64,000 nucleotides of DNA. It comes from Dehalococcoidia bacterium. Lineage in GTDB: Bacteria > Chloroflexota > Dehalococcoidia > Lucifugimonadales > UBA1127. The first letter of the stretch is position 1, and every line of letters begins with the position of its first letter. The stretch is from positions 17,632 to 81,631 of the forward strand of contig DAOUJQ010000013.1 in the NCBI GenBank assembly GCA_034422455.1, given 5' to 3'. Position numbers and translations under genes: made by a program. A model generated the notes under the pieces. That model was not told the DNA's origin. It ran no database searches and saw only the letters and a list, made by a program, of their open reading frames with translations. This document shows, in pieces, positions 6,235 to 61,482 of this stretch.

Positions 6235-6309
6235 TGGAGCGGGCGATGGGAGTTGAACCCACGACAACCTGCTTGGAAGGCAGGGGCTCTGCCGCTGAGC
6301 TACGCCCGC
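6235..6309 (-). tRNA. tRNA-Gly (anticodon UCC), CCA encoded
   Basis: The reverse complement reads GCGGGCGTAGCTCAGCGGCAGAGCCCCTGCCTTCCAAGCAGGTTGTCGTGGGTTCAACTCCCATCGCCCGCTCCA. It has a cloverleaf, anticodon loop CTTCCAA and T-loop GGTTCAACTCC. Confidence 0.92.
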
Positions 6310-10070: not shown

Positions 10071-11342
10071 TCACGATTGAGGCTGGAAGCGGGCCTGCAG
10101 GTGCTCGACGTGGTGGCGCTCCTCCGTGCACTCCGCGACGGAGAGCTCCACCTGGATCGTCACGTGGTTGAGCCCGTGGCTGTACACGATCTTCCGGAGC
10201 TGCTTCAGTATGTCCTCCTGGCGTCCGGCCTGGGTGGGGCTCACGAAGACGTGGGCCGTGAAGGCGTCGTAGCCGGAGGTGATGGTCCAGGCGTGGACGT
10301 CGTGGACCAGCGTCACGCCCTGCACGTCCTCCATCTCGCTGCAGATGTTGTAGATGTCCACGGTCTCCGGCGTGCCCTCCAGCAATACCTTGAACACCCG
10401 CATGAACAGGCCCCAGGAGACCTTGAGGATGAGCAGGCCGATGAGGACGCTCATGATGGGGTCGGCGATGTACCAGGTCGAATTGTCGTCGGCGAACGCA
10501 ACGATCAGGATGCCGGAAATGATGACGCCGACGGAGCCCATGAGGTCCGCCATGACGTGCTGGAAGGCGCCCTCCACGTTGAGGCTCTCTCCCGCCGCCC
10601 GGTGCAGCACCCACGCCGCGGCGATGTTGATGATGAGGCCGATGACGCCGACGCTGAACATCAGCGGGCCCTCGACCTCCGGCGTGTCGGAGAAGCGGTG
10701 GTAGGCCTCCAGGAAGATCCACCCGGCGATGAGCCACAGGCTCACGGTGTTGGCGAGCGCGGCAAGCACCTCCGTCCGGTAGAAGCCGAAGGTCGAACCC
10801 GCCACGGCCGGCCGGTTGGCGATCCACATGGCGAACAGCGCCAGCGCGATGGAGGCGGCGTCGGTCAACATGTGCGCGGCGTCCGCCAGCAGCGCGAGGC
10901 TGCCGGAGAGGATGCCGCCGACGACCTCCACGAACATGAACCCGCCAATGAGGACGAGCGCCAAAATCAGGCTCTTCTTGCTGGCCCCGCGCAGGTCATG
11001 GGCATGGTCATGGCCGCCGTGCCCATGGTGATGGTGACCGTGGCCCGCGTGGGCGTGGTCATGCTCATCGTGGTCGTGGTCCTCATGCTCGTGGTCGTGG
11101 TCATGCTCGTGGTCGTGCTCCGTGTGGTCGTGCCCCGCGTGGTCGTGGGCATGGTCATGCTCATGGTCGTGGCCCGCGTGGTCGTGGGCATGGTCATGCT
11201 CGTGATCGTGCCCCGCGTGGTCGTGCCCTTCATGGTCGTGAGCATGGTCGTGGTCGTGCTCCGCGTGGTCATGGTCGTGGCCCGCGTGGTCGTGGGCATG
11301 GTCATGCTCGTGATCATGGTCATGCCGGTGTTCAGTCGTCAC
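10071..11342 (-). CDS. Cation diffusion facilitator (CzcD/ZitB-like) transporter with a very long His/Asp-rich N-terminus
   Basis: ORF track, 423 aa, GTG start with GGGAAGGGATGG upstream. The C-terminal ~300 aa has the CDF pattern ([16 protein letters not shown]...[13 protein letters not shown]...). The first ~115 aa are HDHxH repeats. Confidence 0.9.
11031..11340 (-). repeat. Coding tandem repeat (His/Asp tract of the CDF gene)
   Basis: The core GCGTGGTCGTGGGCATGGTCATGCT recurs at about 11137, 11176 (39-nt period, or 13 aa: [13 protein letters not shown]) and 11284. Confidence 0.7.
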
Positions 11343-11447: not shown

Positions 11448-11705
11448 CTAGACTGCGTGGGCAACGTGGTGCGGGTCGTCTGCCGCCGCGCAGTGCTCGC
11501 CGCCGTGCTCGTGGCAGTGGATGTGGCCGTGCTCGTCCATGTCCTCCGGGCCCATGATGGCCTGGCAGGCCGCGTCGCCGTGGATGTGGCAGTGGCCGGC
11601 GCCGTGCTCGTGGCAGTGGACGCCGTCATGGGCGTGGCAATGCTCGCCTGCATGCTCGTGACAGTGGTCGTCATGCTCGTGACTGTGGTCGTGCGCTTCC
11701 GCCAT
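11448..11705 (-). CDS. Small His/Cys-rich putative metal-binding protein (HCH repeats)
   Basis: ORF track, 85 aa with 25 His and 7 Cys by my count. The motif HCH(E/A/I)H occurs five times. RBS is AAGGAGGGG. It lies directly upstream of the CDF gene on the same strand. Confidence 0.7.
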   Translation of the reverse strand: MAEAHDHSHEHDDHCHEHAGEHCHAHDGVHCHEHGAGHCHIHGDAACQAIMGPEDMDEHGHIHCHEHGGEHCAAADDPHHVAHAV

Positions 11706-12133: not shown

Positions 12134-13534
12134 ATGAAACAGAACAGGCCATCGTTCCGGGCCACGGCCCGATGGTCCGCGCTCCTGGCGCTTGCCGCCG
12201 CCCTCGGCGTGCTGGCGGCCGCCGCGTGCGGCCCAACCGACGACGCGACCGAGCCCTCGTCGTCACAGGAGGCCGCCGGGACCACGGAGACGTCCGGCAG
12301 CGACGCGACGACGGCCACGACGGACGCCGCCCCGAAACCGAGCGTCGAAGTCGGCCACGCCGTCGGGATGATGGCCCCGGACTTCACCGCGGAGACGGTG
12401 GCGGGCGACTCGATCACCCTGTCGGAGGTGACCGCGGGATCGCCGGTCCTCCTCTACTTCTTCACGACGTGGTGACCGACGTGCAATGCCGAGTTTCGGC
12501 ATCTGCGGTCGCTCTACCCCGGCTACCAGGACGACGTCGCCCTCATCGGCGTCGGCGTCGACCCAAGCGAGTCAGCCGACAAAATCTCGAGATGGGCCGA
12601 AAGGAACGGCTTTGATTGGCCCCTCACGGAAGCGGTCGGCAGCGCCCTGACCGACTACCGCGTGACGCAGCAATCCGCAGCCGTCGGCATCGACGCGGAC
12701 GGCATCATCGTGCTCCGCAAGAACGGCGGCCTCCAGGGCGAGGGCAAGTGGACGGAGTGGCTGGACACCCTGGGCGGTCCAAGGACTTCCGCGGAGCTGG
12801 AGGCTCCCTCCACCGCCGCCCAGGCGGCCCCGGCTCCCGTGGAAGCCGTCCCGACGCAGGCGCCAGCGCCGAGCCAGCCTTCGCCAACGGCCGCGCCCGC
12901 GCCCACAACAGCTCCGCCTCCTGCGGCTACGGCAGCTCCGGCCCCGACCACGGGCCCAGCGCCGACGGCAGCGCCTCCCCCGACGGCAATCCCAGCCCCG
13001 ACACAGGCGCCGCCTCCACCCCCAACGGCAACACCACGGCCCCGCCCGACATCGACGCCGACCCCCGCGCCAACGGCGACGCCGAACATTCCTGTCGGCC
13101 ACAACATCGGCCAGCGGGCGCCGGACTTCACCGTGACGGCGGTGAGCGGGGAGACGATCACGCTGTCCGAGGTTACGGCAACCGGCAAGCCCGTCCTCAT
13201 CTACTTCTTCGCGACATGGTGACCGACCTGCAATGCGGAGTTGCCGCATCTGCAGGGCCTCTACTCAGCCAATAGCGATGACGTGTTGATCGTGGGCATC
13301 AGCACGGACCCGGGCGACTCCGAGTCCCGCGTCCGAAGCCACGCCCGCAACAGGGGGATAACGTTCCCGATGGCGCCGCACGACCGCAGCATCGTGATCG
13401 ACTCCTACCGGGTGAGCGCGCAGTCCAGCGCCGTCGGCATCGACGCGAACGGGGTCATCCGGCTCCGCAAGGGCTACGGGCTGCAGGACGGGAACGAGTG
13501 GCGGAACTGGGTGGAGACGCTGACGGGCAGCTAG
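12134..13534 (+). CDS. Tandem two-domain TlpA/ResA-like thioredoxin-fold lipoprotein with two in-frame UGA (predicted selenocysteine) codons
   Basis: ORFs 11984-12475, 12662-13222 and 13241-13534 share one frame and are separated only by TGA at 12473 and 13220. The TGAs sit in YFFTTW-U-PTC and YFFATW-U-PTC, the redox CxxC position. A SECIS-like hairpin follows each. The signal peptide ends in a lipobox-like LAAAAC after ATG 12134. Confidence 0.75.
12482..12507 (+). promoter_or_regulatory. Bacterial SECIS-like hairpin 1
   Basis: Upper stem ATGCCGA (12486-12492) pairs with TCGGCAT (12496-12502) around loop GTT. Lower stem is TGCA/TGCG with a C bulge. The upper stem starts 10 nt after the TGA. 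Confidence 0.7.
13228..13255 (+). promoter_or_regulatory. Bacterial SECIS-like hairpin 2
   Basis: Upper stem ATGCGG (13233-13238) pairs with CCGCAT (13244-13249) around loop AGTTG. Lower stem is CTGCA/TGCAG with a C bulge. The spacer after the TGA is 10 nt. The stem differs from hairpin 1 by compensatory changes. Confidence 0.7.
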
Positions 13535-19064: not shown

Positions 19065-19829
19065 TTACTCTCCCACCACCGGGTTTCGGAGCGTCCCGAT
19101 GCCCGGGATCTCCACCTCCACAACGTCGCCCGGATGCAGCTCGCTGGTCTGCCCCGGCGTGCCGGAATAGATGACGTCGCCCGGGTCCAGGGTGACGTAG
19201 CGGCTGATCTCGCTGATGACCGTGGGGATGTCGAAGATCAGGTCCTCGGCGTGGGCGTGGTTGTGCGTCTTCTCGCCGTTGACGGAGACCTGGATGGTGA
19301 AGTCGAAGGGGTCGATGTCGGTGTCGATGACCGGCCCCAACGGCCCGAAGGTGTCGGCGCCCTTGGCCCGCCACCACTGCATGTCCTTCTCCGGCCCGTT
19401 CTGCCAGTCACGCGCGCTCACGTCATTGCCGATGGTGTAGCCGAGCACGTAGTCCAGCGCCTCCTCTTTGGAGACCTTGCTGCACGTCTTGCCGATGACC
19501 ACCACCAGCTCGCCCTCCTCGTCCACGCGCCCCGCGCCGTCGGGCAGCACGATGTTCTCGCCGTCGGCGATGATGCAGTTGTGGGGCTTGTAGAAGCCCT
19601 CGACGCGCTTGGGCGCGGGCCGCTCGCCCAGGTGGGTGCTGTAGTTGAGGGCGATGGCGATGACCTTGCCGGGGTGGACCGGCGCGAGGATCTGGACCTC
19701 GTCCAGCGTGTGCGTGTGGTCGGTGATTTCGTATTCCTCGAAGGGCGACGTGGTGAGCTGAAACACCCTGCCGTCCTCGACCACGCCGTAGGCGACCTCG
19801 CCGTGGGCGTAGTACCTGGCGAACTGCAT
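19065..19829 (-). CDS. Fumarylacetoacetate hydrolase (FAH) family protein
   Basis: ORF track, 254 aa. Contains EGELVVVIGK...VLGYTIGNDVSARDWQ...GTPGQTSELHPGDVVEVEIPGIG. Confidence 0.9.
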   Translation of the reverse strand: MQFARYYAHGEVAYGVVEDGRVFQLTTSPFEEYEITDHTHTLDEVQILAPVHPGKVIAIALNYSTHLGERPAPKRVEGFYKPHNCIIADGENIVLPDGAGRVDEEGELVVVIGKTCSKVSKEEALDYVLGYTIGNDVSARDWQNGPEKDMQWWRAKGADTFGPLGPVIDTDIDPFDFTIQVSVNGEKTHNHAHAEDLIFDIPTVISEISRYVTLDPGDVIYSGTPGQTSELHPGDVVEVEIPGIGTLRNPVVGE

Positions 19830-33592: not shown

Positions 33593-34264
33593 ATGTCAGA
33601 ATGGCTGGGCCGCGAGTACAACTACGCCGTGTGGCGGCCGTCGCAGGCCGAGTTCCAGCTGCTGAAGGAGATCCACCACGCGGGCGACGTCGCCCCCGAC
33701 TTCACGCTGCCCCTCCTCGACGGCGGCGAGCTGAGCCTCTCCGACCTGAAGGGCAAGCCCGTCGTCATCGAGTTCGGCTCCATCACCTGACCGCCATGCC
33801 AGGGGGAGTTCCCCCTCATGGACCAGCTGGCCCGCGACTACGCCGACCGCGCCCACTTTCTCTTCGTCTACGTGCGTGAGGCCCACCCGGACGACTTCCC
33901 GCAGTGGCCGGAGCACAAGACCATCAAGCAGAAGTTCGAGCAGGCGCGCCTCATGCGGGAGCGCCACGGCACGCCGCGCACCATCGTGGTCGACGACGTG
34001 GAGGGCACGGTGCACCGGGCGTGGAGCGGCATGCCCAACATGAGCTGGATCATCGACCACACCGGCCGCGTGTTCTTCAAAGCGGGGTGGACGGTGGAGT
34101 CCGACCTGCGCGCCGGACTGGAGGACTACTTCGACCTGAGGGAGCGCATGCGGGAGGGCTCGACGGCGCGCTACTACAAGGAGTACATCACCGCCACGCC
34201 GCGGATGCGCGAGGGCGGTGGCATGATGCGGCCGCAGCGCGAGCCCGCGGAGACCGGCGGGTAA
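33593..34264 (+). CDS. Deiodinase-like (DIO/Prx-like thioredoxin-fold) protein with one in-frame UGA (predicted selenocysteine)
   Basis: ORFs 33374-33790 and 33818-34264 share a frame across TGA 33788-33790. ATG 33593 follows AAGGAGGG. The motif VVIEFGSIT-U-PPC ... FLFVYVREAHPDD resembles the iodothyronine deiodinase active site FGSxTUPPF. A SECIS-like hairpin follows. Confidence 0.75.
33794..33821 (+). promoter_or_regulatory. Bacterial SECIS-like hairpin 3
   Basis: Upper stem AGGGGG (33801-33806) pairs with CCCCCT (33811-33816) around loop AGTT. Lower stem is CCATG/CATGG with a CC bulge. The spacer after the TGA is 10 nt. Confidence 0.7.
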
Positions 34265-39785: not shown

Positions 39786-41170
39786 CGCCCGTTCCCCGCT
39801 CGCCCTGGGCCTGTCGAAGGGCCGCGTCCCGCCGTTCGCCCTGAGCTTGTCGAAGGGTCCAGCCGCAGCCGCGCCGCCCGCGCGTGCCCCTCGAGGCCCT
39901 CGGCCTCGGCCAGCCGCGCGGCGTCCTCGCCCAGCGCGTGGAACGCCTCCGAGTCCAGCCCGATGACGTTGGTCACCTTCAGGAACTGGTGGACGCCCAG
40001 CGCGCTGTTGAACCGCGCCGTGCCGCCCGTCGGCATGACGTGGCTCGGCCCGGCAATGTAGTCGCCCGCCACCTCCGGCGAGGCCTCGCCGAGGAAGACG
40101 CCGCCCGCGTTGCGCACGCTGACCAGCAGCCGCTGCGGCTCCTCGACGAGGAGGCACATGTGCTCCGGCCCGTACAGGTTCGCGAGCGACATCGCCTGGT
40201 CCAGGTCGTCCACCAGCACGGCCATGCCCTGGTTCTCGACGGCCGCCGACGCGATGTCCCGCTTGGGCAGCGTGACGAGCTGCCGCTCGACCTCCGCGCG
40301 CACGCTCTCCAGCGTGTCCCGCGATGTCGTGATAAGCACCGGCGACGCCAGCGTGTCGTGCTCCGCCTGCGCCAGCAGGTCGGCCGCGCACACGACGGGG
40401 TCGACGGACGCGTCCGCGATGACCAGCGTCTCCGTGGGTCCGTACAGGCCGTCGACTGCCACCTCGCCGTACACCATCTGCTTGGCCAGCGTCACGAAGA
40501 TGTTGCCGGGCCCGCAGACGATGTCCACCTTGGGCACCGACTCCGTCCCGAACGCCATCGCGGCGATGGCCTGGGCGCCGCCAATCTGGAAGACCCGGTC
40601 GACGCCCGCGACGTACGCCGCGGCCAGCACCGCCGGGTTCGGGCCCGCTCCCTGCCGCGACGGCGTCGCCAGCACGACCTCTTCGACGCCCGCCACGCGC
40701 GCGGGCACTGCGGTCATCAGCACCGTCGAGGGGTAGGCGGCCTGCCCGCCGGGCGCGTAGACGCCGGCCCGGGCCATCGCCGTGAACTGCTCGCCAAGGC
40801 CCGTCGCGGGGTCCCGCCACGACCGGGGCATGCAGGCTTCGTGGAAGGCGCGAATACGGCCGGCGGCGGTGTGCAGCGCGCGCCGCAGCTCCTCCGGCGT
40901 CTCGTCATAGGCCTGCCGCAGCGCGGAGGCGGGGGCCTCCAGCGTGTCCGGCGCGCCGCCGTCGAGCATCCCGGCGTACCTGCGCACCGCGGCGTCGCCG
41001 CCGTCGCGCACGTCGTCCAGCACGCGCGACACCGCCTGCCGGGGCGTCAGCCGCTCGCCGAACAGCGCCTCGATGCGCTCCAGCGTCTCCGGCGACGCTG
41101 AGTCCCACACGCGAAGCGCGCCCCGTTCAAGCGCCTTCCGCCCGTTTTCATAGCCCACGACTACCCGCAT
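39782..41170 (-). CDS. hisD: Histidinol dehydrogenase with a repeat-encoded C-terminal extension
   Basis: ORF track, 462 aa. The body is typical HisD (GGAQAIAAMAFGTES...CGPGNIFV...AQAEHD). The last ~27 aa (DPSTSSGRTAGRGPSTGPGRAGNGR) are encoded by two D-type repeat modules. Confidence 0.9.
   Translation of the reverse strand: MRVVVGYENGRKALERGALRVWDSASPETLERIEALFGERLTPRQAVSRVLDDVRDGGDAAVRRYAGMLDGGAPDTLEAPASALRQAYDETPEELRRALHTAAGRIRAFHEACMPRSWRDPATGLGEQFTAMARAGVYAPGGQAAYPSTVLMTAVPARVAGVEEVVLATPSRQGAGPNPAVLAAAYVAGVDRVFQIGGAQAIAAMAFGTESVPKVDIVCGPGNIFVTLAKQMVYGEVAVDGLYGPTETLVIADASVDPVVCAADLLAQAEHDTLASPVLITTSRDTLESVRAEVERQLVTLPKRDIASAAVENQGMAVLVDDLDQAMSLANLYGPEHMCLLVEEPQRLLVSVRNAGGVFLGEASPEVAGDYIAGPSHVMPTGGTARFNSALGVHQFLKVTNVIGLDSEAFHALGEDAARLAEAEGLEGHARAARLRLDPSTSSGRTAGRGPSTGPGRAGNGR
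39796..39859. repeat. Two D modules (reverse orientation) inside the hisD 3' coding region
   Basis: CCGCTCGCCCTGGGCCTGTCGAAGGGCC and CCGTTCGCCCTGAGCTTGTCGAAGGGTC. Confidence 0.75.
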
Positions 41171-44986: not shown

Positions 44987-45008
44987 TGCGCTGTTCTCAG
45001 GCGAAAGG

Positions 45009-45400
45009 GGCCGGTGGGCCTGTAAGCCGAGTTCTGTCCCCGGCCGCCATCAGTTTACGCCCCGTCGCCGGGACTTCCTCCTCATGCGCAGCCGGGTGGC
45101 GGCCATCCCTCTAGCCCTGCCGTTGCCGGCAGGGTCGTGCGGCCAACCCGGGGGCGAGCCGGGCGCTCATGGCCCCCCTATTTGGCCTTGCTCCGGGTGG
45201 GGCTTGCCCGCCGCCGTGTCACCACGGTCGGCCGGGAGCTCTTGCCTCCCGATTTCACCCTTACTCCGGCGGACCGGAGCGGTATGTTTCTGTGGCGCTT
45301 TCCGTCGGGTTGCCCCGCCTGGGCGTTACCCAGCACCCTGCCCGGAGGAGCTCGGACTTTCCTCTCCGACGAATCGGAGCGGCCACCCGGCCCACCGGCC
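45009..45400 (-). ncRNA. rnpB: RNase P RNA (bacterial type A)
   Basis: The minus strand contains GAGAGGAAAGTCCGAGCTCC (P4 5' half), GGAGTAAGGGTGAAA and ACAGAACTCGGCTTA (P4 3' half). P1 forms between GGCCGGTGGGCC (5' end, complement of 45389-45400) and GGCCCACCGGCC (3' end, complement of 45009-45020). Confidence 0.88.
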
Positions 45401-59107: not shown

Positions 59108-60184
59108 ATGGGCTTCGCCGTGCACGGAAACCACGGGGTGACCTACTGGGAGAAGGACCGCACCTTCAACGGCGTCACGCTCTACAGCACCTTCGGCAGC
59201 CCCAGGACCAGGCTCATCAACATGGACGGAGACGTGGTGCACGAGTGGACAGCCCCGGACCCCGCCAAGCCCTTCTTCGGCTACCTCCGGGACAACGGCA
59301 ACCTCCTCGTCCGGTGCTTCGACGGCTCGGAGCCGTACACCTACGGCGGCAACGGCGGCGTCCTCGTGGAGCTCGACTGGGACAGCAACGTCCTCTGGCG
59401 CTACGACAACCCGGTCATCCACCACGACCACATCGTCCTGCGCAACGGCAACATCATGGTCATCGGCTGGGAGCCCCTCACGTCGGAGGAGAAGGACCTG
59501 GTGCAGGGCGGCTACGAAGAGCTCGACGACGAGGGCAACCTCAAGGAGATGCTCTGCGACTTCCTCCTGGAGCTGACGCCGGACCGGCAGGTCGTCTGGG
59601 AGTGGCACGGGAAGGACAGGCTGGACCCCGCGCAGGACGTCATCTGCCACATGGACACCCGCAACGAGTGGACGCACTGCAACGCCGTCCTGGAGCTGCC
59701 GGACGGCAACATCTGCCTCAGCTTCCGGCAGACGAGCCAGCTCATCTTCATCGACAAGGCGACCGGCGATGTCTACTGGCGCTTCGGCCCCGGCGAGCTC
59801 TTCCACCAGCACAACCCCACGCTGCTGGAGAACGGCAACCTCCTGGTCTTCGACAACGGCGAGCACCGGCCGAGGCCGTCGGCAACCTCGCGCGTCGTGG
59901 AGCTTGACCCCGCCACGAAGGAGATCGTATGGGAGTACAAGGGCGACCCCACGGCCTCCTTCTACAGCACGCACATCAGCGGCGCCCAGCGCCTCCCCAA
60001 CGGCAACACCCTCATCTGCGAGGGCCGCCCCGGACGGTTCTTCGAAATAACGCCGGAAAAGGACCTCGTCTGGGAGTTCATGAACCCGGAGATCCTGGAG
60101 TTCCGCGAGGAGAAGTTCAACCGCGCCGTCTTCCGCGCCCGCCGCTACGCTGTCGACGGCCCGGAGGTGCGCGGCCGCGTATAG
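59108..60184 (+). CDS. Arylsulfotransferase (ASST)-like beta-propeller protein, paralog 1
   Basis: ORF track, 358 aa. It has repeated xNGNxLx blades (DNGNLLV, RNGNIMV, PDGNICL, ENGNLLVFDNG, PNGNTLI) and HHDH. There is no signal peptide. Confidence 0.7.
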   Translation: MGFAVHGNHGVTYWEKDRTFNGVTLYSTFGSPRTRLINMDGDVVHEWTAPDPAKPFFGYLRDNGNLLVRCFDGSEPYTYGGNGGVLVELDWDSNVLWRYDNPVIHHDHIVLRNGNIMVIGWEPLTSEEKDLVQGGYEELDDEGNLKEMLCDFLLELTPDRQVVWEWHGKDRLDPAQDVICHMDTRNEWTHCNAVLELPDGNICLSFRQTSQLIFIDKATGDVYWRFGPGELFHQHNPTLLENGNLLVFDNGEHRPRPSATSRVVELDPATKEIVWEYKGDPTASFYSTHISGAQRLPNGNTLICEGRPGRFFEITPEKDLVWEFMNPEILEFREEKFNRAVFRARRYAVDGPEVRGRV

Positions 60185-60285
60185 CCGCCCGACGCTCGCC
60201 CGTTCTTGACATTCGCATGGCCGAGGGCGCACCTTGCCGCCATTCCCCCCACCCGACCCGTGCAATACGGGGAAGGAGATCGCAC

Positions 60286-61359
60286 ATGGGCTTCCCGATC
60301 TACGGCCCGAAGGGCGTCACGCACTGGGACAGGGAGAACGCCTACCCCGGCGTCACGCTCTACACCACCATCGGCGGCGAGCGAGTGCATCTCGTCGACA
60401 TGGACGGGATGGTGGTCCACGAGTGGACGCCGCCGGAGGGGATGAAGCCCTTCTACGGCTTCCTCCGCGACAACGGCAACCTCCTCGTGCGCTGCCACAC
60501 CGGCACGGAGCCGTGGCAGATGGGCGGCTTCGCGGGCATCATGCTGGAGCAGGACTGGGACGGCAACGTCCTCTGGCGCTACGACAACCCGGTCATGCAC
60601 CATGACCACATCGTCCTGCGCAACGGCAACATCATGGTCATCGGCTGGGAGGTCATACCGCCGGAGGTGGCGGCAAGGGTGCAGGGCGGCGTGCTCTCGG
60701 CCCCGGACGGCGGTCCGGGCGAGATGCTTGGCGACTTCCTCCTGGAGCTCACGCCCGACAAGGAAGTCGTATGGGAATGGCACGGCCACGAGAAGCTGGA
60801 CCCGGCGCAGGAGGTCATCTGCCCCCGTGAGGCCCGCCACGAGTGGACCCACTGCAACGCCGTCATCGAGCTCGCCGACGGCAACATCTGCCTGAGCTTC
60901 CGGCAGACCAGCCAGGTCATCTTCATCGACAAGGCCACGGGCGACGTCACCTGGCGCTTCGGCCCCGGCGAGCTCGTCCACCAGCACAACCCCACGCAGC
61001 TCGCCAACGGCAACCTGCTCATCTTCGACAACGGCGAGCACCGCCCCGGCCCCGGCATGTACTCCCGCGTCGTGGAGGTCAACCCGGCCACGGAAGAGAT
61101 CGAGTGGCAGTTCCGCGGCGACCCGGCGCTCTCCTTCTTCAGCAACGGCATCAGCAGCGCCCAGCGTCTAGCCAACGGCAACACCTTCATCTGCGATGGC
61201 CGCACGGGCCGCCTCTTCGAGGTCACGATGGACGGCGACGTCGTCTGGGAGTTCATCAACCCGGAGGAGGCCCCCTGGCGCACCGAGAAGCGCAACCGCG
61301 CCGTCTTCCGCGCCATCCGCTACCCCGTCGACGGCCCGGAGGTGCGCGGCCGGGTGTAG
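60286..61359 (+). CDS. Arylsulfotransferase (ASST)-like beta-propeller protein, paralog 2
   Basis: This is the 3' part of ORF 59929-61359, from ATG 60286, which follows GGAAGGAGA. It is colinear with paralog 1. Confidence 0.7.
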   Translation: MGFPIYGPKGVTHWDRENAYPGVTLYTTIGGERVHLVDMDGMVVHEWTPPEGMKPFYGFLRDNGNLLVRCHTGTEPWQMGGFAGIMLEQDWDGNVLWRYDNPVMHHDHIVLRNGNIMVIGWEVIPPEVAARVQGGVLSAPDGGPGEMLGDFLLELTPDKEVVWEWHGHEKLDPAQEVICPREARHEWTHCNAVIELADGNICLSFRQTSQVIFIDKATGDVTWRFGPGELVHQHNPTQLANGNLLIFDNGEHRPGPGMYSRVVEVNPATEEIEWQFRGDPALSFFSNGISSAQRLANGNTFICDGRTGRLFEVTMDGDVVWEFINPEEAPWRTEKRNRAVFRAIRYPVDGPEVRGRV

Positions 61360-61482
61360 CTGATCCGACGCAGCAGCATCGCCTCCGTTCAACGGCCTTG
61401 ACACCCTTGGCAGGCTCGGCGAACCTAGCGCGCAATCCTTTGGCCAGGTTACGCGCACGATCGGCCCGAAAGGAGCGGACAC

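What the first reader, a model, noticed from the sequence alone, without database searches (positions are those of the whole stretch)
13220..13255. All three candidate Sec codons share one recoding-signal architecture
At 12473, 13220 and 33788 the TGA is followed by exactly 10 nt and then an upper stem of 6-7 bp. The stems are ATGCCGA/TCGGCAT, ATGCGG/CCGCAT and AGGGGG/CCCCCT. Each is capped by a small loop containing G-T-T (GTT, AGTTG, AGTT). Each sits on a 4-5 bp lower stem with a 1-2 nt C bulge on one side. Stem sequences differ completely between sites while the geometry and the loop GUU are kept. This is what is expected of a SelB-binding bSECIS, where conserved G/U lie in the apical loop about 11 nt after the UGA. 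It is not expected of chance hairpins. No selA/B/C/D gene is visible in this window.
Basis: partly seen in the sequence, partly recalled or inferred. Interest (0 to 1): 0.6.

Follow-up and report, generated by a model that had tools for sequence, protein, structure and literature searches.

The report
Three genuine bacterial selenocysteine recoding hairpins
Three in-frame TGA codons in two thiol-redox genes of an uncultured Dehalococcoidia-type bacterium are each followed by a conserved hairpin that fits the known bacterial selenocysteine-insertion signal, so this is a correct call of an ordinary, known mechanism.

Summary
TGA at 12473, 13220 and 33788 is each followed by 10 nt, a 6-7 bp stem and a 3-5 nt loop containing GUU. 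Of 1422 TGAs in the window, only these three fit that geometry, and only these three lie in a coding-type frame on both sides.

The TGAs replace the first Cys of a CxxC motif. Two sit in one 466-aa lipoprotein with two AhpC/TSA (ResA/TlpA-like) domains. One sits in a deiodinase-like protein.

In homologues from metagenomes and Dehalococcoidia MAGs the codon is TGA at 76 of 81 and 90 of 109 sites, and never TAA or TAG. Every TGA site in the lipoprotein family, and nearly all in the deiodinase-like family, carries the hairpin, and stem pairs co-vary. Cys (TGY) forms lack it.

A covariance model built without window sequences recovers exactly the three sites. Synonymous recoding rarely reproduces the structure, and rare codons are used where the stem needs them.

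The elements meet every structural criterion of the published bSECIS consensus, and both protein families are known selenoprotein families. selA/B/C/D were not found in the 73 kb I could inspect, and the rest of the genome was out of reach.

Verdict: real bSECIS elements, new members of a known kind. The fused two-Sec architecture is a modest extra.

The parts
12134..13534 (+). Gene A: a 466-codon ORF read through two in-frame TGAs. It has a lipoprotein-type signal (..LAAAAC), AhpC/TSA domain 1 (W-U-P-T-C), a Pro/Ala/Thr linker and AhpC/TSA domain 2 (W-U-P-T-C). It ends in TAG.
   Evidence: Translation. Pfam AhpC-TSA 136 bits in 2 stretches. NCBIfam ResA-like hit below its cut-off. Orthologues have the same architecture. 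RBS GGAGG lies upstream.
12473..12475 (+). Sec codon 1 (UGA) at the first Cys position of the CxxC motif in domain 1.
   Evidence: TGA is conserved in Dehalococcoidia homologues.
12474..12514 (+). bSECIS 1. Upper stem-loop at 12486-12502 (AUGCCGA-GUU-UCGGCAU, or 6 bp with loop AGUUU). Bulged C at 12503. The lower helices reach back into the UGA.
   Evidence: Fold -20.5 kcal/mol, z -3.3. CM hit 49 bits, E 2.7e-10. Recoding P 0.0002.
13220..13222 (+). Sec codon 2 (UGA) at the first Cys position of the CxxC motif in domain 2. It is in the same frame as codon 1, 249 codons downstream.
13227..13256 (+). bSECIS 2. Upper stem-loop at 13233-13249 (AUGCGG-AGUUG-CCGCAU). Bulged C at 13250. 6-bp lower stem.
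   Evidence: Fold -19.6 kcal/mol, z -2.9. CM hit 58.4 bits, E 1.4e-12. Recoding P 0.0006.
33593..34264 (+). Gene B: a 223-codon deiodinase-like thioredoxin-fold protein with motif T-U-P-P-C. It ends in TAA. In the source assembly it is called as two fragments.
   Evidence: Translation. Pfam T4_deiodinase 61.4 bits against a cut-off of 27. Called as 65-aa and 148-aa fragments. Most homologue clusters are truncated at the same point.
33788..33790 (+). Sec codon 3 (UGA).
   Evidence: TGA at 76 of 81 homologous sites.
33794..33821 (+). bSECIS 3. Upper stem-loop at 33801-33816 (AGGGGG-AGUU-CCCCCU). 5-bp lower stem (CCAUG/CAUGG) with a CC bulge on the 5' side.
   Evidence: Fold -18.1 kcal/mol. CM hit 44.7 bits, E 3e-9. 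Family covariation. Recoding P 0.018.

Best explanation
The three hairpins are bacterial selenocysteine insertion sequences (bSECIS).

Shown here: each TGA sits at the first Cys position of a thioredoxin-fold CxxC redox motif, inside an uninterrupted coding frame. Each is followed 10 nt later by a compact stem-loop of 16-17 nt whose loop presents G-U. The codon and the hairpin are conserved together across homologues.

Inferred from the established SelB mechanism: while the ribosome decodes the UGA, the C-terminal winged-helix domains of SelB bind the apical loop. SelB then delivers Sec-tRNA(Sec) to the A site in competition with RF2, so Sec is inserted instead of termination.

Products:
- Gene A would be a secreted lipoprotein with two UxxC thiol-disulfide reductase domains. 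It has two Sec residues, each served by its own bSECIS.
- Gene B would be a deiodinase-like UxxC redox protein.
For: 1. Only three TGAs in the window have at least 50 stop-free codons and a coding-type GC3 pattern on both sides, and they are these three.
2. Pfam domains span the TGAs: AhpC-TSA 136 bits and T4_deiodinase 61 bits.
3. In the deiodinase-like family, 76 of 81 homologous sites are TGA, 5 are TGT and none is TAA or TAG. Nearly all TGA sites carry a hairpin about 10-13 nt downstream, and the TGT sites do not.
4. In the AhpC/TSA family, 90 of 109 sites are TGA. All 68 unique TGA sites have a hairpin starting at nt +11. The 19 TGY sites have none. Mean shuffle z is -1.48 for TGA against -0.03 for TGY.
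5. Covariation: 3 of 6 stem pairs compensate in the deiodinase set, with 90.8% of cells paired against 47-62% when partners are slid, and 0 of 500 shuffles reach the observed value. In the combined non-window set, 6 of 6 pairs compensate and the loop G (column 21) is invariant.
6. A covariance model built without window sequences scores the three sites at 58, 49 and 45 bits (E 1e-12 to 3e-9). The next hit scores 17 bits and is an out-of-frame TGA in hisD.
7. Synonymous recoding with the window's own codon usage matches the native stability in only 0.02%, 0.06% and 1.8% of trials. Rare codons are used exactly where the stem or loop needs them: AAT 4%, TTG 3%, TTT 8%, CAT 14%, GGG 17%.
8. A Cys homologue (L154) encodes the identical peptide PTCNAELPHL and has no hairpin.
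9. The elements fit the published bSECIS consensus (PMC13188914).
10. Both protein families are known UXXC selenoprotein families (PMC1088965).
11. Dehalococcoidia MAGs with 46-49 selenoproteins are on record (PMC13326102).
Against: - No selA, selB or selD is annotated by Pfam, and no tRNA-Sec is found, in the roughly 73 kb of the source scaffold that I could inspect.
- There is no experimental evidence of Sec insertion.
- The fold of site 3 is not unusual against dinucleotide shuffles (z -0.43). Its support comes from family covariation and the recoding test.
- Alignment A4 was selected for in-register pairing, so its percent-paired figure is inflated. The compensatory changes are not affected.
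- No Rfam family matched.
Confidence: 0.9

Rival explanations
1. The hairpins are a by-product of a conserved peptide motif (CxxC-x-x-E-[FL]-P) and of high G+C content. On this reading they are not a selected RNA signal.
For: - The loop GAG-TTx is the Glu-Phe/Leu codon pair in all three sites.
- Sites 1 and 2 are paralogues.
- The fold of site 3 is unremarkable against shuffles.
Against: - Synonymous recoding reproduces the stability in at most 1.8% of trials, and rare codons are used at stem and loop positions.
- A Cys homologue with the identical peptide lacks the hairpin.
- The loop G-U is kept where the peptide is S-L or A-L instead of E-L.
- Stems co-vary through non-synonymous changes, for example Arg CGG to Pro CCG paired with Ala GCC to GCG.
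- The UPYC subgroup places the hairpin in a different codon register.
Confidence: 0.04
2. The TGAs are true stop codons or pseudogene lesions. Each locus is then two or three separate short genes, and the hairpins act in termination or translational coupling.
For: - Gene callers split the loci at the TGAs.
- TGA does terminate 6 of 34 long ORFs in the window.
Against: - Single Pfam domains span the TGAs.
- The codon is always TGA, never TAA or TAG, across more than 160 homologous sites, and it sits at the catalytic Cys position.
- The coding GC3 signature continues in the same frame.
- The downstream fragments would lack the redox motif.
Confidence: 0.03
3. UGA is decoded by something other than SelB. 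Candidates are a genome-wide reassignment (to Trp or Gly) or a hairpin-stimulated near-cognate readthrough that inserts Cys or Trp.
For: - The Sec machinery was not found in the accessible sequence.
- TGA is an unusually rare stop codon for a 67% G+C genome.
Against: - In-frame TGAs occur only at redox-Cys positions, three in 64 kb. A reassigned codon would be scattered.
- TGA still ends some ORFs.
- The hairpin has the SelB-type G-U loop and spacing.
- Relatives in this class are catalogued as selenoprotein-rich.
Confidence: 0.03

Closest known systems
Bacterial SECIS consensus (bSECISearch model of Zhang and Gladyshev, as summarised in PMC13188914)
   Same: - The hairpin lies immediately downstream of an in-frame UGA within the coding sequence.
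- The apical loop is 3-5 nt (allowed 3-9).
- The upper stem is 6-7 bp (allowed 4-16).
- G occupies loop position 1 or 2 and is followed by U.
- MFE is -18 to -20 kcal/mol (required at most -7.5).

   Different: - The UGA-to-loop distance is 16-17 nt, at the very bottom of the allowed 16-37 nt range.
- That distance is essentially fixed across this Dehalococcoidia set.
E. coli fdhF SECIS, the minimal element
   Same: - The upper stem-loop is about 17 nt, placed a fixed short distance after the UGA: 11 nt in E. coli and 10 nt here.
- G-U in the apical loop is the conserved determinant.
(PMC8659212.)
   Different: - There is no bulged U in the 5' arm of the upper stem. Instead a C bulge separates the upper and lower helices.
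- The G-U sits at nt 21-22 rather than 23-24.
- Loops are AGUUN or GUU rather than GGUC. The UPYC subgroup of deiodinase-like homologues does carry GGUC.
Deiodinase-like bacterial selenoproteins (Sargasso Sea selenoproteome, PMC1088965)
   Same: - Pfam PF00837 hit above its cut-off.
- Thioredoxin-type fold.
- Sec and Cys forms both exist.
- bSECIS with a conserved loop G.

   Different: Nothing substantive. This copy is simply unannotated and split in its source assembly.
Prx-like and thiol-disulfide isomerase-like UXXC selenoproteins; ResA/TlpA/DsbE-type Cys proteins
   Same: - AhpC/TSA fold.
- W-[U/C]-P-x-C redox motif.
- Secreted or lipoprotein context.

   Different: - Two such domains, each with Sec and its own bSECIS, are fused in one ORF through a Pro/Ala/Thr linker.
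- The protein scores below every NCBIfam equivalog cut-off, for example ResA 122.6 against 170 bits.

Membership tests
bSECIS (published consensus, PMC13188914) | Stem-loop immediately downstream of an in-frame UGA inside the coding region | tested here: met
bSECIS (published consensus, PMC13188914) | Apical loop of 3-9 nt on an upper stem of 4-16 bp | tested here: met
   Loops are GUU/AGUUU, AGUUG and AGUU. Stems are 6-7 bp.
bSECIS (published consensus, PMC13188914) | G in the first two loop positions, usually followed by G or U | tested here: met
   G-U at all three sites. Column 21 is G in 38 of 38 aligned homologous elements.
bSECIS (published consensus, PMC13188914) | 16-37 nt between the UGA and the apical loop | tested here: met
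   16-17 nt (10-nt spacer plus a 6-7 nt arm), at the lower limit.
bSECIS (published consensus, PMC13188914) | MFE of at most -7.5 kcal/mol | tested here: met
   -20.5, -19.6 and -18.1 kcal/mol.
bSECIS (functional definition) | Bound by SelB and directs Sec insertion at the UGA | not testable with these tools
   Needs a binding or reporter assay, or proteomics.
bSECIS (functional definition) | The host genome encodes selA, selB, selC (tRNA-Sec) and selD | tested here: inconclusive
   None found in scaffold record 8200-77056 by the precomputed Pfam annotation. No tRNA-Sec in the window or in the fetched loci.
Rfam SECIS families | Match to a curated covariance model | tested here: not met
   No SECIS family hit at the gathering threshold over the window, nor at E up to 10 over 12400-13350. 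Site 3 was checked only at the gathering threshold.
E. coli fdhF-type SECIS | Bulged U17 in the upper stem, with loop G23-U24 | tested here: not met
   No 5'-arm U bulge, and the G-U lies at nt 21-22 (PMC8659212). The element works like this type but is not a sequence-level member.
Deiodinase-like selenoprotein (PF00837) | Pfam hit above the gathering score, with Sec aligned to the Cys of Cys-form homologues | tested here: met
   61.4 bits against a cut-off of 27. P0003 has C-P-N-C at the aligned position.
AhpC/TSA thioredoxin-fold UXXC selenoprotein | Pfam PF00578 hit above its cut-off, with UxxC aligned to the CxxC of homologues | tested here: met
   136 bits in two stretches. YFFATW-C-PxC in archaeal and planctomycete homologues.
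ResA / DsbE / TlpA equivalogs (NCBIfam) | Score above the curated cut-off | tested here: not met
   ResA 122.6 against 170, DsbE 77 against 123, TlpA 48.6 against 230. It is a relative, not an equivalog.

The most novel reading that the evidence does not exclude
A Dehalococcoidia clade may use an unusually compact, position-locked bSECIS: a 10-nt spacer, a 16-17 nt stem-loop and an invariant G at nt 21, at the minimum of the published distance range. This compact element is reused twice within one mRNA to make a conserved fused two-Sec lipoprotein reductase. It may go together with genome-wide avoidance of TGA as a stop codon (TAG 23, TGA 6, TAA 5 in this 67% G+C window). If so, the lineage would show genome-level adaptation to heavy Sec decoding.
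Probability: 0.3. Interest if true: 0.45.

Novelty: new member of a known kind. Interest (0 to 1): 0.27.

Why it matters
The practical value is in annotation. These genes are called as meaningless fragments in the source assembly. Most of the 95 homologue clusters of the deiodinase-like protein in the large protein collection are truncated at the Sec codon. A small covariance model such as R1 would repair hundreds of gene models in Dehalococcoidia and SAR202-type MAGs.

Biologically, the result adds a conserved secreted lipoprotein with two Sec residues and two bSECIS elements. It also gives a very tight clade-specific bSECIS consensus that could guide SelB-SECIS specificity studies. It does not change what is known about how Sec is decoded.

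Tried and rejected
- Rfam gave no SECIS family hit at the gathering threshold over the window, nor at E up to 10 over 12400-13350.
- A protein search with full-length gene A was swamped by the low-complexity Pro/Ala/Thr linker: 8000 candidates and only 11 hits. I switched to domain alignments and locus scans.
- The TGA at 19571(+), which has a 10-nt spacer and a 6-bp stem with loop GTAG, is out of frame and was rejected.
- The TGA at 29797(-) passed the stop-free filter but has an antisense-type GC pattern and was rejected.
- The next covariance-model hits, at 40672-40716(-) and 63572-63612(+), are out-of-frame TGAs inside ordinary genes.
- The hits in L165 are equally weak.
- I looked for the Sec machinery by walking the source scaffold. 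Nothing turned up within reach, and one look-up failed because the ORF start did not match a called gene.
- ARAGORN found no tRNA-Sec in any fetched locus.
- I did not run a structure prediction, because the sequence-family evidence was already decisive.

Full report
**What is in the sequence**

- Site 1: TGA 12473, then CCGACGTGCA, then ATGCCGA-GTT-TCGGCAT.
- Site 2: TGA 13220, then CCGACCTGCA, then ATGCGG-AGTTG-CCGCAT.
- Site 3: TGA 33788, then CCGCCATGCC, then AGGGGG-AGTT-CCCCCT.

RNA folding reproduces the upper stems. It also gives 4-6 bp lower stems, set off by a bulged C on the 3' side at sites 1 and 2 and by a CC bulge on the 5' side at site 3. Energies are -20.5, -19.6 and -18.1 kcal/mol.

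Sites 1 and 2 are paralogous and differ by one compensated pair, so they are not completely different. The hairpin, not the loop, starts 11 nt after the UGA.

**Is it more than chance?**

The window holds 1422 TGAs on both strands. Exactly these three have a 10-nt spacer, a Watson-Crick stem of at least 6 bp and a 3-5 nt loop containing GTT. The number stays at three when the spacer is relaxed to 6-16 nt. Because those criteria came from the sites themselves, I ran three independent tests.

1. I asked which TGAs have at least 50 stop-free codons and a coding-type GC3 periodicity on both sides. Four passed. Three are these sites, and the fourth is an antisense-frame artefact.
2. I built covariance model R1 from 38 homologous elements, none from the window. 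It scored the three sites at 58.4, 49.0 and 44.7 bits (E 1e-12 to 3e-9). The next hit scored 17 bits and is an out-of-frame TGA in a histidinol dehydrogenase gene.
3. I recoded the 14 downstream codons synonymously, using the window's own codon usage. This matched the native stability in 0.02%, 0.06% and 1.8% of 5000 trials. The native sequences use rare codons exactly where the stem or loop requires them: AAT 4%, TTG 3%, TTT 8%, CAT 14%, GGG 17%.

**The genes**

Both TGAs at 12473 and 13220 lie in one frame of a single 466-codon ORF, 12134-13534. The ORF has a lipoprotein-type signal and two AhpC/TSA domains joined by a Pro/Ala/Thr linker. Each domain carries W-U-P-T-C (Pfam 136 bits in two stretches). 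The protein is ResA/DsbE/TlpA-like but falls below all NCBIfam cut-offs.

The TGA at 33788 lies in a 223-codon ORF, 33593-34264, with T-U-P-P-C. It matches Pfam T4_deiodinase at 61 bits.

In the source assembly (ENA ERZ23495174, scaffold_386, 154.7 kb) both genes are called as fragments.

**Comparative evidence, deiodinase-like family**

Most of the 95 homologue clusters are 125-170 aa C-terminal fragments that begin just after the TGA position. A metagenome scan seeded on a motif away from the Sec site returned 80 loci. Of 81 aligned sites, 76 are TGA, 5 are TGT and none is TAA or TAG.

Nearly all TGA sites carry a hairpin about 10-13 nt downstream, with different stems: AAGGGG/CCCCTT, AGCGGG/CCCGCT, TAGCGG/CCGCTA, TCGCGG/CCGCGA and ACGTGG/CCACGT. 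In a U-P-Y-C subgroup the stems are GCAGAG-GGUC-CUCUGC or CGCUGGC-GGC-GCCAGCG, in a different codon register. The TGT forms have no hairpin.

On 20 sequences, 3 of 6 stem pairs show compensatory changes. 90.8% of cells pair, against 47-62% when partners are slid, and 0 of 500 shuffles reach the observed covariation.

**Comparative evidence, AhpC/TSA family**

A scan of species-representative genomes returned 79 loci. The closest are all Dehalococcoidia/Chloroflexota MAGs. Of 109 family sites, 90 are TGA, all but one (a Myxococcota MAG) in Dehalococcoidia/Chloroflexota MAGs. The other 19 are TGC or TGT, all from archaea, Planctomycetota and other phyla.

All 68 unique TGA sites have a hairpin whose 5' arm starts at nt +11 after the TGA. 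In 32 it is a perfect 6-bp stem, and in 36 it is 3 bp, a bulged A, then 3 bp. The mean shuffle z is -1.48 for TGA sites and -0.03 for TGY sites.

One Cys homologue (L154) encodes the identical peptide P-T-C-N-A-E-L-P-H-L and has no hairpin. The loop G-U is retained even where the peptide is S-L or A-L rather than E-L.

In the combined non-window alignment all 6 stem pairs show compensatory changes, and the loop G (column 21) is invariant in 38 of 38 sequences. That alignment was selected for in-register pairing, so its percent-paired value is inflated, although the compensatory changes are not.

**Mechanism**

Shown here: in-frame UGA at a redox Cys position, with a conserved, co-varying, position-locked hairpin that presents G-U in its loop.

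Inferred from the established SelB mechanism: SelB binds the apical loop and delivers Sec-tRNA(Sec) to the UGA in competition with RF2. In gene A this must happen twice on one mRNA, each time with its own bSECIS.

Rivals:
- A peptide by-product is contradicted.
- True stops or pseudogenes are contradicted.
- Codon reassignment or SelB-independent readthrough is contradicted by the restriction of in-frame TGAs to three redox-Cys positions and by TGA still ending 6 of 34 long ORFs.

**Comparison with what is known**

The published bSECIS consensus asks for a 3-9 nt loop, a 4-16 bp upper stem, a G in the first two loop positions followed by G or U, 16-37 nt from UGA to loop, and an MFE of at most -7.5 kcal/mol (PMC13188914). 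All criteria are met, with the distance (16-17 nt) at the lower bound.

The E. coli minimal element is a 17-nt stem-loop 11 nt from the UGA, with U17, G23 and U24 conserved (PMC8659212). Here the stem-loop is 16-17 nt and lies 10 nt from the UGA, the G-U is at nt 21-22, and there is no U bulge. It is therefore a functional analogue and not a sequence-level member.

Deiodinase-like, Prx-like and thiol-disulfide isomerase-like UXXC selenoproteins have been known since the Sargasso Sea analysis (PMC1088965). Dehalococcoidia MAGs with 46-49 selenoproteins are catalogued in BSepDB (PMC13326102). Rfam gave no SECIS match at the thresholds used.

**What remains open**

No selA, selB or selD (by precomputed Pfam annotation) and no tRNA-Sec were found in the roughly 73 kb of the scaffold within reach, or in any fetched locus. 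The rest of the genome could not be read.

**Novelty and interest**

This is a correct identification of ordinary bSECIS elements in known selenoprotein families, in a lineage already known to be rich in selenoproteins. They are new members of a known kind.

The mildly notable points:
- The fused two-Sec, two-bSECIS lipoprotein is conserved as one ORF in 11 species-representative genomes. In 22 others it appears as two adjacent Sec genes (orthologues).
- The spacing in this clade is very tight.
- TGA appears depleted among stop codons.

Noticed in passing
window, whole (crude set of 34 long ORFs): Stop-codon usage is TAG 23, TGA 6, TAA 5. TAG dominance and TGA scarcity are unusual for a 67% G+C genome. 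They could relate to heavy use of UGA for Sec. Both selenoprotein genes end in TAG or TAA.
   Followed up: partly
window 12134-13534; L083, L084, L086-L096: The two-domain, two-Sec lipoprotein with a Pro/Ala/Thr linker is conserved as a single ORF in 11 species-representative Dehalococcoidia genomes. Another 22 genomes carry two adjacent, separately framed Sec-containing paralogues instead.
   Followed up: yes
window 1776, 3425(-), 3635, 4750, 13624, 16212, 19979, 32320: A short palindromic element, TTCCTGCCTGCGCAGGAA, occurs 8 times against 0.05 expected. It is REP-like. One copy lies about 90 nt downstream of the stop of gene A. It yields recurrent spurious 'PACAGTT/PAQERR' ORF translations.
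   Followed up: partly
window 10071-11342(-) and 11448-11705(-): Immediately upstream of gene A lie a cation-efflux (CDF) protein with a very long His/Asp-rich N-terminus (HDHDHEHDH...) and a small His/Cys-rich ORF. A similar stretch precedes the gene A orthologue in L084, which suggests a metal-handling neighbourhood.
   Followed up: no
L081, sites at about nt 1786 and 2743: One metagenome contig carries two deiodinase-like copies with TGA, one U-P-Y-C and one U-C-Y-C. Their hairpin sits much further downstream, about 23 nt, as GGCGAUGG-AUG-CCAUCGCC. The spacing is therefore not universal in that family.
   Followed up: no
L083 (ENA ERZ25067264 ctg813808), between nt 2935 and 3689: The orthologue of gene A has its two Sec codons in different frames here. 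The called protein P0096 runs into the +1 frame. This is probably a long-read indel error rather than biology.
   Followed up: no
window 45007-45398(-) and 6235-6309(-): Bacterial RNase P class A RNA (254 bits) and tRNA-Gly(UCC) are the only Rfam or ARAGORN RNA genes in the window.
   Followed up: no
window 59108-62553(+): Three tandem arylsulfotransferase-family paralogues sit next to SBP_bac_5 / BPD_transp ABC transporter genes.
   Followed up: no
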